DNA from: Patescibacteria group bacterium
Lineage (GTDB): Bacteria > Patescibacteriota > Gracilibacteria > BD1-5 > UBA6164
DNA length: 64,000 nucleotides
NCBI GenBank assembly: GCA_047637875.1
Contig: JBLJBH010000038.1
Location: forward strand, 1,969-65,968
Reading direction: 5' to 3'
Part shown: piece by piece, positions 1-64,000 of the stretch
Layout of the letters: every line of letters starts with the position of its first letter
Position numbering within the stretch: position 1 is the first letter of the stretch
Made by a program: the position numbers and the translations under genes
Notes under the pieces: generated by a model
The model's input: only the letters and a program-made list of their open reading frames with translations
Databases searched by the model: none
What the model was told of the DNA's origin: nothing

Positions 1-64
1 TATTGAGTTCTACTCAAAATAATACTTTGATTTATATTTTTGTTATTTCATAATTTTACTAAAA

Positions 65-1045
65 ATGCATATTATACATAATATAATTTGAGTTCCAAAA
101 ATTTCTCAACAAGACTTAGAAGTAAATGTTTCTAAATTTACTTTAGGACCTTTACCAAAATGATATTGAGTAACTTTATGAAACTCTTTAAGAAGAGTAC
201 TTTTATCTTCTATACCTTGAACTAGAGTAACTTGAATAAAAGTAGCTTGAGTAAGTCATGAGTATTCAACTCTTCCATGAGTTAAAGATAGTGTGTTAGA
301 TATAATGTTAAACTTAAAAAGTTTAATTATTGATAAAAAAACTACAGATATTGAATGGATAAAGTTATCAAAAAATAAAGCTTGAAAAGTTTTAGCTTCT
401 GATATAAAAACTTCTGCTTGAATTGAAATTTTAAATAAAGACCTTTATATTACTGAAATTGATAAAGATGGTTTAGCTCTTGATATTGAAATCAGAGTAG
501 AAAAATCTGTTTGATATTTAAGTATTGAAGAACTTAAAAAAAGAGAAGATGATGTTAATGTTTTATTAGTTGATGCTAATTTTTCACCTGTAATAAGTGT
601 AAAATATGAAGTAAATGATACAAGATTTTGAGATATTACAAACTTAGATTCACTTGAAATGACTATTTCAACAAATTGAGTTATATCTCCTGTAGATTCT
701 TTAAAATTTTCTTCTAATATGTTATCATCATATTTTGGAATATTTAATGAAGAATCTCTACAAGTAGAATGACAATTTATTTCAAATGTAGCTGATTTAC
801 TTCAAAAAGAAAAAGAAGAAATTAAAGAAGAACTTGAAAAAGAAACATATACTCCAATCGAAATTATGTGACTTTCACCAAGAACTTTAAATGCTTTAAT
901 CAATTGAAATATACTTTCAATTGAACAACTTGTTAAATGTACAGAAACTAAACTTTCATCAATAAAATGATTCTGAAAGAAAGCTATGACAGAAATAAGA
1001 GAAGCACTTTGAGAAAGAGGTTTAAAACTTCTTTGAGACGATTAA
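65..1045 (+). CDS. rpoA: DNA-directed RNA polymerase subunit alpha
   Basis: 326 aa with TGA=Gly. N-terminal GYGVTLGNSLRRVLLSSIPG and C-terminal domain LSPRTLNALINGNI..IKGFGKKAMTEI. ATG 65, TAA 1043-1045, length divisible by 3. Confidence 0.93.
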
Positions 1046-1094
1046 AAAAATTGGTTTTTAACCAAAAAAATTATTAATTATTAATTTAATTACT

Positions 1095-1457
1095 ATGAGA
1101 CATAGAGTAAGGAAAAACTTAAAGTTTAACTGAAAAACATTCCAACATAGGAAAGCTATGGAAAGAAATCTTTTAACGAATTTATTTTTACATAAAGCTA
1201 TTAAAACTACTCCAAAAAAAGCTGCTTTAATTGCTCCAATGATAGATAAAATGATAAATGTTGTTAACTCAAAAGATGAAATGAATGCTATCAGATATGT
1301 TATGCAATATTTATTTACTAAAGAATCATCTTTAGAATTATTTAAAAATATAGCCCCAAAATTTAAATGAAATAAAACTTCTTGATTTACAAGAGTTACT
1401 CCTATAAAATATAGGGATTGAGATAATGCTAAATTAGTATTACTTGAATTACTTTAG
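1095..1457 (+). CDS. rplQ: 50S ribosomal protein L17
   Basis: [30 protein letters not shown] is a typical L17 N-terminus. In frame with track ORF 1158-1370. Confidence 0.9.
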
Positions 1458-1480
1458 TTATTATTTATAAAAAGCATATT

Positions 1481-1912
1481 ATGAAAACATTAATGCCAAA
1501 ACAATTATCAAATGATTCTAGAAAATGGTACGTAGTTGATGCAGAAGGTCAAACCCTTGGTAGACTTGCTACACAAATTGCTATAATCTTAAAATGAAAA
1601 AATAAAGTTTCATTTGCTCCACATTTAGATAATTGAGATTACGTTGTAGTAATCAATTCAGAAAAAATTTCTGTTACAGGAAATAAAATGGAGGGAAAAA
1701 TTTATTATAGACATACTGGATTTATGTGAGGGTTAAAACAAATTACTCTTGGTAAATTAATGGTTAAAAAACCAACTGAAGCTTTACATAAAGCAGTGTC
1801 TTGAATGTTACCAAAAAATAAATTAAGAGCTGATATGTTAGCAAGATTGAAACTAGTTGTTTGAAGTGAACACAGTTTTAAAGCTCAACAACCAGAAACA
1901 ATAACTTTATAA
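1481..1912 (+). CDS. rplM: 50S ribosomal protein L13
   Basis: [46 protein letters not shown]. 143 aa. Confidence 0.92.
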
Positions 1913-1930
1913 TAATTATACTTTAAAATT

Positions 1931-2323
1931 ATGGCTAATAAATATATTCATGCAATTTGAAGAAGAAAAACAGCTACTGCTCAAGTAAGATTATTTGAAT
2001 GAGCTGGTAATTCTACAATAAATTGAAAAGAAGTTTCAACTTATATAACAAGACAAGACTTATTTGAAACAGCTTTTGCTCCAGTAAAATTATGTTCTTT
2101 AAAAGATAAAGTTTTTTTTGAAGTTAAAGTAGAATGAAGCTGAATTTCAGCACAAGTTCAAGCTATTAGACATGGACTTTCTAGAGCTTTAGCTGAAAAA
2201 GAAGAAGGGTTTAAAAAAACTTTAAAAGCAGCTTGATTATTAACAAGAGATGCCAGAAAAGTTGAAAGAAAAAAACCAGGAAAGAAAAAAGCAAGAAAAT
2301 CTCCATCTTGGTCAAAAAGATAG
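1931..2323 (+). CDS. rpsI: 30S ribosomal protein S9
   Basis: GRRKTATAQVRL ... LLTRDARKVERKKPGKKKARKSPSWSKR C-terminus. 130 aa. Confidence 0.92.
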
Positions 2324-2358
2324 TTTATTCTTTTTTCTTAAACAATACTATTATATAT

Positions 2359-61267: not shown

Positions 61268-61351
61268 AATAAAGTATATATGTGAAGTTTTGGATGAAGC
61301 AAAACTCATCCAAGATTTTCATTTATATTTTATATTTTAACATAAGAGATT

Positions 61352-61573
61352 ATGGAATTAAAAGAATTAGCAATGGCTTTAGCTATTTGATTAGGGGCAA
61401 TTGGTCCTGGTTTTGGTATTGGTTTAATTGGTAAAGGTGCGCTAGAAGCTCTTGGTAGAAACCCAGAAGCTGCTGGTAAAATCCAAGGTTTAGCAATTTT
61501 ATGTATTGCATTAGCTGAAGCAGTTGCAATCTACGCATTAGTTATTGCTTTAATTATCTGATTTGCTATGTAA
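61352..61573 (+). CDS. atpE: F0F1 ATP synthase subunit c
   Basis: 73 aa. [10 protein letters not shown]...RNPE...[17 protein letters not shown]. Confidence 0.92.
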
Positions 61574-61603
61574 TTTTATTTTATTTACAACAAAACAATA
61601 ATT

Positions 61604-62095
61604 ATGACAGAAGGATTACACGACTTCCAGTTCTTTACATTAGAAACACTCGTAATTCAAACTATAATATTAGTTTTAATATTATGGGTTTTAAATCGTT
61701 TTGTTTTTAAACCTTACTTGGTTTATCTTGATAAAGAGGCTGAAAAAAGAAAAAAACTAGAAACAGATTATAATAATATTGAGAAGCTTAATAAAGAAGC
61801 AGTAGAAGCTAAAGAAGCGCTACTTGCTGAGGCAAGAACAGATGCTGCAACTATTAGAAAAGATGCAACTGAAATTGCAAAAAAAGAAGCTCAAGTTATT
61901 AAAGATTCTGCAATATTAGAGGCTGCAAGTATAAAAAATTCAGCTTTAAGCGAGATTGCAAAAGAGAAAGAAACAATGTTAAATGACGTAAAAGCAAAAT
62001 CTATTGATTTAATTTTAAAATTTAACGCAAAGCTTTTTTCTAGAGAGAAAGTGAATAAAGATTTTATAGAAACTGAATTATCTTCTATTAAATAG
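61604..62095 (+). CDS. atpF: F0F1 ATP synthase subunit b
   Basis: Track ORF, 163 aa. N-terminal TM helix then a long charged helix. No TGA codons. Confidence 0.85.
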   Translation: MTEGLHDFQFFTLETLVIQTIILVLILWVLNRFVFKPYLVYLDKEAEKRKKLETDYNNIEKLNKEAVEAKEALLAEARTDAATIRKDATEIAKKEAQVIKDSAILEAASIKNSALSEIAKEKETMLNDVKAKSIDLILKFNAKLFSREKVNKDFIETELSSIK

Positions 62096-62104
62096 TAATA
62101 AAAA

Positions 62105-62458
62105 ATGATTATGAATATTACGAATTTAGATAAAAAAGAGTTAGTAGCTCTTAATAAAAAATTAAAGCTTTTAAGTTCCTTAAAGAAATCTTTATGAAAC
62201 AGAGGTACTAAAGAATATCACAAGATAGTTGATGGAAAAGATATTTATAAAGTAGAATATTTTGATTTTGGTGCTGATGCTTTAAATTATGTAGAGGATA
62301 AAGCTCTTGAAAGTTTTAAAAAATTATTTTGATTGAATCTTCAATTAACACAAATTGAATTTACAAAAAATCAAAATTTACAAGGATGAATGAGAGTTTT
62401 TTATAACGATAATATGTTTGATTTAAGTTATAACAGATTTCAAAATTTATTAAAATAA
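62105..62458 (+). CDS. atpH: short ATP synthase delta (OSCP)-like subunit
   Basis: 117 aa. C-terminus LQGGMRVFYNDNMFDLSYNRFQNLL resembles the delta C-terminus. Called from position between atpF and atpA. About 60 aa shorter than usual. Confidence 0.6.
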
Positions 62459-62565
62459 CCCACCCTATCCCTCCCTTAATTCTAATGGAGGGGAAAATAA
62501 GGAAAAGATTTTCGTAATTGCTCCCCTTAGATTTAAGGGAAGCTGTCTGAAGGACTGATGGGTTA
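62456..62565. repeat. GC-rich structured repeat, copy B (atpH-atpA spacer)
   Basis: Outer pairing TAACCCA (62456-62462, starting on the atpH stop codon) with TGGGTTA (62559-62565). Hairpins CCCTCC..GGAGGG and GCTCCCCTTA..TAAGGGAAGC. Shares blocks with 23689-23845. Confidence 0.6.
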
Positions 62566-62595
62566 ATTATTTTTATATTTATAAAAAATTTATAT

Positions 62596-64000
62596 ATGTC
62601 AAATGACTTATTAAATGGAATTATAAGTGACATTGAAAAACAAATCGATACTCTTGATTCTACTCCTTCAATGGAGAATGTTTGAGAAGTATTTTATTTG
62701 TGAGACTGAGTAGCGAAAGTTTCTGGTCTTAGAAATGTTGCTTACAATGAATTAGTTGAATTTGAATCAGGATGAGTTTGAATTGCTTTAAATCTTGAAG
62801 AACACTATGTATGAGTTGTAGTTTTAACTGGATTTAATAAAATTAAAGAATGACAAACAGCAAAATGTACATGAAGAACTTTAGAAGTTCCAGTTGGTGA
62901 AGGGCTTATCGGAAGAGTAGTTGACTCTCTTTGAAATCCTATTGACGGACTTGGTGATGTAAAATCAAAAGAATTTTATCCAATTGAAAGAGTTGCTACT
63001 TGAGTAATGGATAGAAAATCAGTTCATGAACCAATGCAAACTGGTATTAAAGCGTTAGATGCTTTAGTTCCTGTATGAAGAGGGCAAAGAGAATTAATTA
63101 TCTGAGATAGACAAACTGGGAAAACTCAAGTTGCTATTGATGCTATCGTAAACCAAAAAGGTCAAAATGTTATTTGTGTATATGTTGCTATAGGACAAAA
63201 AGAGTGAAAAATTGCTAGAGTAGTAGAAGAATTAAGAAATAGATGAGCTATGGACTATACTATCGTAGTTTCCGCATGAGCTTCTGATCCTGCTTCTATG
63301 CAATATTTAGCTCCATATGCTGGATGTGCTATGGCTGAATATTTCATGTTTAATGGTAAACATTCTTTAATAGTTTATGATGATTTAACTAAACAAGCAA
63401 ATGCTTATAGAGAAATGTCATTACTTTTAAGAAGACCACCAGGAAGAGAAGCATATCCAGGGGATGTATTTTATCTTCACTCAAGATTACTTGAAAGAGC
63501 TTCAAAATTAAATGATGAATTAGGTGCTGGATCAATGACTGCTCTACCAATTATTGAAACACAAGCTTGAGATGTTTCTGCTTATGTTCCAACAAACGTA
63601 ATTTCTATTACTGACGGTCAAATTTTCCTTGAATCTGACTTATTTAATGCTGGTCAAAAACCTGCTATTAACGTATGATTGTCAGTTTCAAGAGTTTGAG
63701 GGTCTGCTCAAATTAAAGCCATGAAAAAAGTTTCAGGTACTTTAAAACTAGATTTAGCTCAATATAGAGAATTAGCAGCATTTTCACAATTTGCATCTGA
63801 CTTAGATGCTTCAACTAGAAAACAACTTGAAAGAGGTAAAAGAATGATGGAACTTTTAAAACAATGAGTTTTTGAACCAATAACAGTTGAAAAACAAGTC
63901 GCTTCTATTTATGCTTGATCAAAAGGATATTTAGATGCAGTTGATGTTTCAAAAATTAGAAAAGTTGAAAAAGAATTATACTTAGCACTTGATGAAGAAA
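62596..64000 (+). CDS. atpA: F0F1 ATP synthase subunit alpha (3' partial, runs off the window)
   Basis: Walker A GDRQTGKT with its first Gly encoded by TGA 63103-63105. Track ORF 63298-63570 is in frame. Confidence 0.95.

What the first reader, a model, noticed from the sequence alone, without database searches (positions are those of the whole stretch)
1..64000. The whole window is recoded: in-frame TGA = glycine (translation table 25)
The standard-code ORF track tops out at 227 aa and cuts every conserved gene into pieces. Reading TGA as sense restores about 60 contiguous genes separated by only 0-60 nt. TGA sits on invariant glycines: GyrA YHPH-G-D (25315-25317), AtpA Walker A G-DRQTGKT (63103-63105), HsdM NPPF-G-G, S12 PQKR-G-VC, SecA TNMA-G-R-G-TD, and the pilin KGFTLIE context. 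TGG is still used for Trp (L13 K-W-Y at 1526-1528, HsdR NGW), so this is not the Mycoplasma-type code 4. TGA appears to be the preferred Gly codon. Any annotation or homology search of this contig with table 11 will fail.
Basis: partly seen in the sequence, partly recalled or inferred. Interest (0 to 1): 0.75.

Follow-up and report, generated by a model that had tools for sequence, protein, structure and literature searches.

The report
UGA-means-glycine code in a Gracilibacterium

Summary
Under the standard code, ORFs reach at most 227 aa and cover 19% of the window. With TGA as sense they reach 1325 aa and about 91-93% coverage, ending in TAA (42) or TAG (9).

Four independent tests show that TGA means glycine:
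- Against 17 E. coli K-12 orthologues, TGA aligns with Gly at 143 of 246 positions and with Trp at none.
- Against 148 diverse GyrA representatives, Gly scores +98 bits, the next best (Ala) −82 and Trp −185.
- Pfam scores rank G above X above W in all seven domains tested.
- Against related genomes, codon by codon, TGA exchanges with GGN and never with TGG.

TGG remains Trp, and all other well-sampled codons are standard. TGA makes up 68% of glycine codons.

The nearest relatives are annotated Gracilibacteria / Ca. Altimarinota, the clade for which table 25 was defined and confirmed by proteomics.

The decoding tRNA-Gly(UCA) is not in the window. A pattern scan found it in 96 loci, mostly from related MAGs. 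Loss of RF2 could not be tested here and rests on the literature.

Verdict: correct, important for annotation, already known, low novelty.

The parts
1..64000 (.). Whole window: chromosomal segment of a Gracilibacteria (Ca. Altimarinota) bacterium in which TGA is a sense (Gly) codon. TGA is 4.2% of codons, GGN 1.9% and TGG 0.56%; stops are TAA and TAG only.
23..3713 (+). rpoA (23-1045), rplQ (1062-1457), rplM (1433-1912), rpsI (1916-2323), rpsL (2400-2840), rpsG (2969-3412), rpmA (3441-3713). Bounds are ORF limits. All carry in-frame TGA at conserved Gly positions, for example S12 PQKR-TGA-VC at 2559-2561.
   Evidence: E. coli alignments; Pfam; synteny with L131; rpmA read
1526..1528 (+). TGG = Trp in L13 (R-K-W-Y, aligned to E. 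coli R-D-W-Y).
3997..4072 (+). tRNA-Thr(GGT), the only tRNA in the window. It is not the UGA decoder. Its 3' end is duplicated at 20566-20581.
6552..7985 (-). hsdM, inside the island. The catalytic motif NPPF is followed by TGA-TGA (7125-7130).
13638..15965 (-). hsdR, with 23 in-frame TGA codons; N-G-W uses GGT and TGG.
24949..27579 (+). gyrA, with 43 in-frame TGA codons. Of the 39 alignable TGA columns, 30 are majority-Gly in 148 diverse GyrA sequences. YHPH-TGA-D lies at 25303-25320, with the TGA at 25315-25317.
34747..38444 (+). Ribonucleotide reductase alpha (34747-37374) and beta (37392-38444) subunits, with 20 and 10 in-frame TGA codons.
41289..43889 (-). secA, with 35 in-frame TGA codons. 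In TNMA-G-R-G-TD both Gly codons are TGA (42315-42323).
51446..55423 (-). 1325-aa secreted S8 subtilase with 100 in-frame TGA codons. A run of nine Gly (51809-51835) mixes TGA and GGN codons.
58478..59692 (-). tyrS, with 13 in-frame TGA codons. In relatives L091 and L122, 11 and 9 of these 13 positions are GGN.
60380..64000 (+). ATP synthase operon: atpB (60380-61267), atpF (61574-62095, no TGA), a 117-aa ORF in the delta-subunit position with no Pfam match (62102-62458) and atpA (62518-64000, cut by the window end). The first Gly of the Walker A motif is TGA at 63103-63105.

Best explanation
The window is ordinary chromosomal DNA of a Gracilibacteria (BD1-5 / Candidatus Altimarinota, Patescibacteria) bacterium that uses NCBI translation table 25.

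Shown here: in-frame UGA is a glycine codon, UGG is still tryptophan, and only UAA and UAG end genes.

Inferred mechanism:
- A dedicated tRNA with anticodon UCA reads UGA. It carries the glycyl-tRNA synthetase identity set (G1:C72, C2:G71, G3:C70, U73, and C35 kept in the anticodon) and is charged with glycine.
- Release factor 2, which would otherwise terminate at UGA, has been lost.
- RF1 alone terminates, at UAA and UAG.

In this 24% G+C genome, GGN to TGA changes are synonymous and lower the G+C content. TGA has therefore become the majority glycine codon (68%).
For: ORF structure:
- TGA as sense raises the longest ORF from 227 to 1325 aa and coverage from 19% to 91-93%.
- Gene ends are TAA 42 and TAG 9.

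Amino-acid composition:
- GGN alone gives 1.9% Gly. GGN plus TGA gives 6.2%.
- If TGA were Trp, Trp would be 4.8% of residues.

Standard-code references:
- Across 17 E. coli K-12 orthologue pairs, TGA aligns with G at 143 of 246 positions and with W at 0 of 246.
- That matches GGA (46 of 87) and GGT (35 of 55). TGG aligns with W at 11 of 33.

Profile test on GyrA against 148 representatives from 50%-identity clusters:
- Gly scores +98.3 bits, Ala −81.8 and Trp −184.9.
- The other 28 well-sampled codons decode as in the standard code.

Pfam scores for AtpA, S12 and RpoA sum to 804 bits with G, 725 with X and 690 with W.

Codon-level comparison, which does not depend on any assumed code:
- In the relative L131, the 139 window TGA codons align with TGA (80), GGN (46) and TGG (0).
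- Window TGG aligns with TGG in 9 of 9 cases.
- L132, L107, L036, L091 and L122 show the same pattern.

Taxonomy: the nearest GyrA homologues are named Gracilibacteria or Ca. Altimarinota. NCBI taxid 363464 now carries the name Ca. Altimarinota, and the Codetta study lists that taxid as Gracilibacteria with UGA->Gly.

tRNA:
- ARAGORN called a tRNA(tca) in 96 of them. Most are labelled Gracilibacteria, Absconditabacterales, Peribacteria or Patescibacteria.
- Two of these loci (L036, L107) lie next to a secA that is 68-70% identical to the window's secA.

Literature:
- Proteomics validated UGA=Gly in BD1-5 (PMC4032931).
- prfB was not detected in any BD1-5 genome available to the authors (PMC6851277).
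Against: - The decoding tRNA-Gly(UCA) is not in the window, and I could not tie a copy to this organism's own genome.
- Absence of RF2 was not tested for this genome.
- Nothing here measures translation directly.
- About 40% of TGA positions align with non-Gly residues in E. coli. The same is true of GGA and GGT, so this reflects ordinary divergence rather than a different meaning.
- Low-level ambiguous decoding of UGA or UGG cannot be excluded from sequence. It could arise through wobble at U34, a possibility raised in PMC8629427.
Confidence: 0.97

Rival explanations
1. Mycoplasma-type code 4: TGA is read as tryptophan.
For: TGA is clearly sense. Most database copies of this clade's proteins have W at these positions, which could mislead a reader.
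Against: - None of 246 TGA positions aligns with W in E. coli.
- W is the worst of the 20 amino acids in the GyrA profile test, at −184.9 bits.
- Pfam scores are lowest with W.
- TGA never exchanges with TGG in relatives but exchanges freely with GGN.
- Trp would make up 4.8% of residues.
- The W residues in the database come from gene calling with table 4. In those sequences W and G interchange at the window's TGA and GGN columns but not at its single TGG column.
Confidence: 0.005
2. Standard code, with the TGAs being real stops: a decayed pseudogene-rich region, or sequencing or assembly errors.
For: Under table 11 every conserved gene is broken into pieces.
Against: - About 800 in-frame TGAs occur with no in-frame TAA or TAG and no frameshifts across 54 genes.
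- The TGAs sit on invariant Gly columns.
- The same TGA positions are kept in independently assembled strains and species: L007 is 100% identical, L008 and L009 are 97% identical, and L131 and L132 are more distant.
Confidence: 0.002
3. TGA encodes selenocysteine or cysteine, or is bypassed by programmed readthrough.
For: ARAGORN labels tRNAs with anticodon tca as 'SeC' by default.
Against: - Cys scores −152.9 bits in the profile test.
- TGA makes up 4.2% of all codons, far too many for SECIS-dependent insertion.
- The related tRNA(UCA) genes are 74-79 nt including an encoded CCA, not the ~90-nt tRNA-Sec type. They have a 7-bp acceptor stem, U73 and G1-C2-G3.
Confidence: 0.002
4. Mainly Gly, but ambiguous. 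A minor share of UGA is read as Trp or terminates, or UGG is partly misread as Gly by the U34 tRNA.
For: - Hanke et al. found 97 peptides unique to the UGA=Gly database against 3 unique to UGA=Trp. At the highest stringency these numbers were 40 and 1.
- Shulgina and Eddy note the wobble risk between UGA=Gly and UGG=Trp.
- TGG is scarce here, at 0.56% of codons.
Against: - Nothing in the sequence requires ambiguity.
- TGG columns are conserved as TGG in relatives (9 of 9 and 4 of 4), and they are the main codon at E. coli W positions.
- Low Trp content is also expected from the 24% G+C composition.
Confidence: 0.05

Closest known systems
NCBI translation table 25 (Candidate Division SR1 and Gracilibacteria code). 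UGA=Gly was described for SR1 (Campbell et al. 2013) and Gracilibacteria (Rinke et al. 2013) and validated by proteomics in BD1-5 (Hanke et al. 2014, PMC4032931).
   Same: - In-frame UGA sits at conserved Gly positions.
- UGG is kept for Trp, and UAA and UAG are kept as stops.
- The genome is very A+T-rich.
- The host clade is Gracilibacteria.
- Relatives carry a tRNA(UCA) with Gly identity elements.

   Different: Nothing of substance differs. TGA is the majority Gly codon here (68%). Among the aligned genes of relatives its share ranges from 10% to 83%, so the window is high but inside that range.
Absconditabacteria (SR1) extended code: UGA=Gly plus CGA and CGG=Trp, with CGG=Trp also predicted in some Gracilibacteria (Shulgina and Eddy 2021, PMC8629427).
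   Same: UGA=Gly, low G+C content, and CGA and CGG extremely rare: one real codon of each in about 19,000.
   Different: - There is no evidence that CGA or CGG mean Trp here, and two codons are too few to decode.
- In related Gracilibacteria, CGA aligns with the window's AGA (Arg) codons.
- The tRNA(UCA) of the window's relatives is the 79-nt Gracilibacteria type, not the 74-nt type that dominates the Absconditabacterales-labelled loci.
Translation table 4 (Mycoplasmatales, Entomoplasmatales and several insect endosymbionts): UGA=Trp.
   Same: A UGA stop became a sense codon in an A+T-rich, reduced genome. RF2 loss is the accepted correlate.
   Different: The amino acid is Gly, not Trp. The decoder in relatives has Gly identity elements, not Trp ones.

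Membership tests
Translation table 25 (Gracilibacteria / SR1 code) | UGA occurs in frame inside conserved protein-coding genes and is read through. | tested here: met
   783 TGA codons in ORFs of at least 150 aa. Coverage rises from 19% to 91-93% and the longest ORF from 227 to 1325 aa.
Translation table 25 (Gracilibacteria / SR1 code) | UGA columns correspond to glycine. | tested here: met
   - 143 of 246 positions are G in E. coli.
- The GyrA profile gives G +98 bits and the next best −82.
- Pfam scores rank G above X above W.
- TGA exchanges with GGN in relatives.
Translation table 25 (Gracilibacteria / SR1 code) | UGG still encodes tryptophan. | tested here: met
   - TGG aligns with W at 11 of 33 positions, its top residue.
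- TGG is the main codon at E. coli W positions.
- TGG aligns with TGG in relatives and never with TGA or GGN.
Translation table 25 (Gracilibacteria / SR1 code) | UAA and UAG remain stop codons. | tested here: met
   All ORFs end in TAA (42) or TAG (9), except one that runs off the window. Making TAG sense does not lengthen ORFs.
Translation table 25 (Gracilibacteria / SR1 code) | The genome encodes a tRNA with anticodon UCA and glycine identity elements (G1:C72, C2:G71, G3:C70, U73). | tested here: inconclusive
   - None lies in the 64-kb window.
- It is present in 96 loci, mostly from related MAGs.
- It could not be linked to this organism's own genome.
Translation table 25 (Gracilibacteria / SR1 code) | Release factor 2 (prfB) is absent and RF1 is retained. 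| not testable with these tools
   - Only 64 kb of the genome is available, with no prfA or prfB among the genes identified.
- The literature reports prfB absent from all BD1-5 genomes available to the authors (PMC6851277).
- Use of TAA and TAG stops only is consistent with termination by RF1 alone.
Translation table 25 (Gracilibacteria / SR1 code) | The organism belongs to the Gracilibacteria / Absconditabacteria clade. | tested here: met
   - The top 120 GyrA hits are 67-90% identical, and all the named ones are Gracilibacteria or Ca. Altimarinota.
- Gene order matches GCA_050252855.1.
Translation table 4 (UGA=Trp) | UGA columns correspond to tryptophan. | tested here: not met
   0 of 246 positions are W. 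W scores −184.9 bits, the worst of 20. Pfam scores are lowest with W.
Absconditabacteria-type extended code (CGA/CGG=Trp) | CGA and/or CGG columns correspond to tryptophan. | tested here: inconclusive
   - The window has only one real CGA (11096-11098, minus strand) and one real CGG (54023-54025, minus strand), neither in a conserved alignable column.
- CGA in relatives aligns mostly with window AGA.

The most novel reading that the evidence does not exclude
In this lineage CGA and CGG may be effectively extinct and unassigned. That would be a codon-capture intermediate on the route to the CGA/CGG=Trp reassignment seen in Absconditabacteria and predicted for some Gracilibacteria. At the same time, TGA would be in the process of replacing GGN as the glycine codon. 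The window shows only the rarity: one CGA and one CGG in about 19,000 codons, and TGA at 68% of Gly codons. It cannot show what the two rare codons mean.
Probability: 0.12. Interest if true: 0.35.

Novelty: already known. Interest (0 to 1): 0.2.

Why it matters
The consequence is practical, not conceptual.

- Gene calling or homology search on this contig must use table 25. Table 11 shatters the genes. Table 4 gives full-length proteins with Trp in place of about two thirds of the glycines.
- Table 4 errors are common in public data. 96 of the 120 closest GyrA sequences in the large protein collection carry W at these positions. Alignments, HMMs and structure predictions built from them inherit the fault.
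- The 16.5-kb mobile island in the window, which carries a type I restriction-modification system, also uses TGA=Gly. It could not be expressed correctly in a standard-code host. This is a small illustration of a genetic-code barrier to gene transfer.

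Tried and rejected
I used the table-25 NCBI homologue P0013 instead.
I pasted translations instead.
3. The 120 closest GyrA homologues are themselves recoded, so they cannot serve as an independent reference for the amino acid. I used them only to show that W (=TGA) and G (=GGN) interchange. E. coli K-12 and the 50%-cluster representatives served as the standard-code references.
4. I tried to find tRNA(UCA) in this organism's own genome.
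   - It is not in the window.
   - In L036 and L107 it lies near secA-ruvA, and in L091 and L122 just after tyrS. The window has no tRNA at either place.
   - I then took the conserved 110-aa neighbour protein as an anchor. It has 557 homologues, and cluster look-ups give no sample accessions.
   - The one look-up I tried came from other samples, so I abandoned this route.
5. I compared tRNA(UCA) with the adjacent tRNA-Gly(GCC) in L091. They are 59% identical, no closer than to other tRNAs, so there is no sign of a recent duplication.
6. Code 4, pseudogene or sequencing-error, and Sec/Cys readings were rejected (see the rival explanations).
7. I looked for reassignment of any other codon. All codons with adequate counts are standard. 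Only rare codons with 18 or fewer aligned positions are noisy.

Full report
**The observation.** The window is 24.4% G+C. Stop-to-stop ORFs under the standard code reach at most 227 aa, and those of at least 100 aa cover 19% of the sequence. Treating TGA as sense raises the maximum to 1325 aa, whereas treating TAG as sense changes nothing.
- A greedy non-overlapping set of TGA-sense ORFs of at least 80 aa has 52 members and covers 93% of the window.
- With first-ATG starts there are 54 ORFs of at least 60 aa, covering 91%, with a median gap of 64 nt.
- In ORFs of at least 150 aa, TGA is 4.24% of codons (783), GGN only 1.91% (354) and TGG 0.56% (104).
- Genes end in TAA (42) or TAG (9).
- Glycine at 1.9% would be abnormally low and tryptophan at 4.8% abnormally high. 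GGN plus TGA gives an ordinary 6.2% glycine.

- Confirmed: TGA at 25315-25317 (GyrA YHPH-G-D), 63103-63105 (AtpA G-DRQTGKT), 2559-2561 (S12 PQKR-G-VC), 7125-7130 (HsdM NPPF-G-G) and 42315-42323 (SecA A-G-R-G-T).
- Confirmed: TGG at 1526-1528 (L13 K-W-Y) and in HsdR N-G-W.
- In the E. coli K-12 alignments, each of these TGA codons faces a Gly.
- One slip: the Gly of the pilin motif KGFTLIE is GGT, not TGA.

**Which amino acid.** I used four independent lines of evidence.

1. Standard-code reference. I fetched six regions of E. coli K-12 and aligned X-masked window proteins to them with tblastn, which gave 17 orthologue pairs.
   - TGA faces Gly at 143 of 246 aligned positions and Trp at none.
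   - GGA faces Gly at 46 of 87 positions and GGT at 35 of 55, so TGA behaves like a normal Gly codon.
   - TGG faces Trp at 11 of 33 positions, its commonest partner.
   - Against a background Gly frequency of 6.8%, the binomial p is about 1e-99.
2. Profile test in the manner of Codetta. I aligned the window's GyrA with 148 representatives of 50%-identity clusters, after excluding two that looked recoded.
   - Of 39 usable TGA columns, 30 are majority-Gly, many of them invariant.
   - Summed log-odds are Gly +98.3 bits, Ala −81.8, Cys −152.9 and Trp −184.9, the worst of all 20.
   - The other 28 codons with at least 8 columns all decode as in the standard code.
3. Pfam bit scores for AtpA, S12 and RpoA with TGA set to G, X or W. 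G beats X and X beats W in all seven families, with sums of about 804, 725 and 690 bits.
4. Codon-level comparison with related DNA, which needs no assumption about the code.
   - In L131 (GCA_050252855.1, Ca. Altimarinota), the 139 window TGA codons face TGA 80 times, GGN 46 times and TGG never. Window TGG faces TGG in 9 of 9 cases.
   - L132, L107, L036, L091 and L122 behave the same way. In L091 and L122 most of the tyrS TGA positions are GGN.
   - A protein-level echo appears in the database. 96 of the 120 nearest GyrA homologues were translated with table 4. In those sequences W (=TGA) and G (=GGN) interchange at the window's TGA and GGN columns, but not at its one TGG column.

**Whose DNA it is.**
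- The 120 best GyrA hits are 67-90% identical, and every named one is 'Candidatus Gracilibacteria bacterium' or 'Candidatus Altimarinota bacterium'.
- NCBI taxid 363464 is now named Ca. Altimarinota. The Codetta study lists the same taxid as Gracilibacteria with UGA=Gly.
- A Logan contig from SRR27295040 is 100% identical to window 19799-29943, and two others are 97% identical.
- Gene order matches GCA_050252855.1: rpsM-rpsK-rpsD-rpoA-rplQ-rplM-rpsI-rpsL-rpsG-rpmA, then NTP-transferase, gyrA, TrmB, PHP and RRM.
- The gene content is chromosomal: ribosomal proteins, gyrA, RNR, secA, ruvA, tsaD, tyrS and the ATP synthase operon.

**Mechanism.** The accepted mechanism for table 25 is a tRNA-Gly with anticodon UCA plus loss of RF2.
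- The window holds only a tRNA-Thr(GGT). An HMM built from related tRNA(UCA) genes finds nothing else.
- ARAGORN calls a tRNA(tca) in 96 of them. Most of those loci are labelled Gracilibacteria, Absconditabacterales, Peribacteria or Patescibacteria. The loci without such a call come from unrelated phyla and look like chance matches.
- The Gracilibacteria version is highly conserved: GCGGGGGTAACATAAAAGAGTGAGTGTACTAAGGCTTCAACCCTTGG..., 79 nt including an encoded CCA.
- In L036 and L107 it lies near a secA-ruvA pair that is 68-70% identical to the window's, but the window has no tRNA there.
- I could not link a copy to this organism's own genome.
- Absence of RF2 cannot be tested on 64 kb. Sieber et al. 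report that prfB was undetected in all BD1-5 genomes available to them, and Hanke et al. validated UGA=Gly by proteomics.
- Exclusive use of TAA and TAG stops fits termination by RF1 alone.
- To summarise: the decoding of TGA as Gly is shown here. The tRNA is shown only for relatives. RF2 loss is inferred from the literature.

**Other codons.**
- The Codetta paper reports CGA/CGG=Trp in Absconditabacteria and CGG=Trp in some Gracilibacteria.
- Here CGA and CGG occur once each in real genes (11096-11098 and 54023-54025, both on the minus strand), so they cannot be decoded.
- In relatives, CGA faces the window's AGA codons, which fits Arg.
- TGA's share of Gly codons is 68% in the window. Among the aligned genes of relatives it ranges from 10% to 83%, so the window is high but not exceptional.

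**Verdict.** The phenomenon is the textbook table-25 code in a member of the clade that defines it, so it is already known. Its importance is practical. Annotation must use table 25, and many public protein sequences from this clade are mistranslated with Trp at glycine positions.

Noticed in passing
window 4053-20581: A 16.5-kb integrated element.
- The last 16 nt of the tRNA-Thr gene (AATTCCCGTTAATGGC, 4053-4068) recur exactly at 20566-20581.
- Between the two copies lie a large serine recombinase (3883-5826, minus strand), a type I restriction-modification system (hsdM 6552-7985, hsdS 9478-10695, hsdR 13638-15965), an AbiEii toxin (7979-8839) and several unknown ORFs.
- The syntenic relative L131 goes straight from rpmA to the NTP-transferase, so the block from the tRNA-Thr gene through the island and the MarR-family gene (20636-21127) is missing there.
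- Island G+C is 22.9% against 24.9% elsewhere, and its genes also use TGA=Gly.

   Followed up: partly
window 3883-4072 (minus strand): The serine recombinase ORF finds no TAA or TAG before the att site. It reads on for 57 codons through the antisense of tRNA-Thr. In a reconstructed excised circle it stops right after the att core. Integration therefore changes the C-terminus of the predicted product.
   Followed up: partly
database hits P0001-P0120 (GyrA homologues): 96 of the 120 closest GyrA sequences in the large public protein collection have 2-6% Trp and 1-5% Gly, because their genes were called with table 4. Only 12 look as if they were translated with table 25. This is a systematic annotation error for the clade.
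   Followed up: partly
L107 tRNA 5992-6070 and the ORF starting 9 nt downstream; also L036, L017, L023, L081: A conserved Lys/Arg-rich protein of about 110 aa (MANSHGL...DFYGMPR) lies just downstream of tRNA(UCA) on the same strand in 18 of 66 Gracilibacteria-type loci.
- It has 557 homologues and no precomputed Pfam domain among the listed hits.
- In L133 it is 2.4 kb away from the tRNA, so the linkage is not absolute.
- It is not present in the window.

   Followed up: partly
window 11096-11098 (minus strand) and 54023-54025 (minus strand): These are the only real CGA and CGG codons in about 19,000 codons. Arg is encoded almost entirely by AGA (469 of 527). That fits the near-extinction of CGA and CGG described for low-G+C recoded lineages, but their meaning here cannot be determined.
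   Followed up: partly
window 51809-51835 (minus strand): A run of nine glycines in the 1325-aa S8 subtilase is written TGA TGA GGA GGT TGA GGA GGA TGA TGA. This is a compact illustration that the two codon types are interchangeable.
   Followed up: yes
window 30290-34027 (+), 10682-13617 (minus strand), 17035-18804 (+): Several long ORFs have no Pfam match at E<=0.001: a 1242-aa protein, the adjacent 323-aa and 645-aa proteins, and a 585-aa protein. The last three lie inside the island.
   Followed up: no
window 38470-41184 (minus strand), 47560-50457 (+), 51446-55423 (minus strand): Three large, apparently secreted or membrane-anchored proteins. Their domains are PKD repeats in the first, a below-cutoff lamin-tail match plus weak PKD in the second, and an S8 peptidase in the third. 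A type IV pilin-like gene lies nearby at 46819-47415. This is cell-surface machinery of the kind expected in an episymbiotic CPR bacterium.
   Followed up: no
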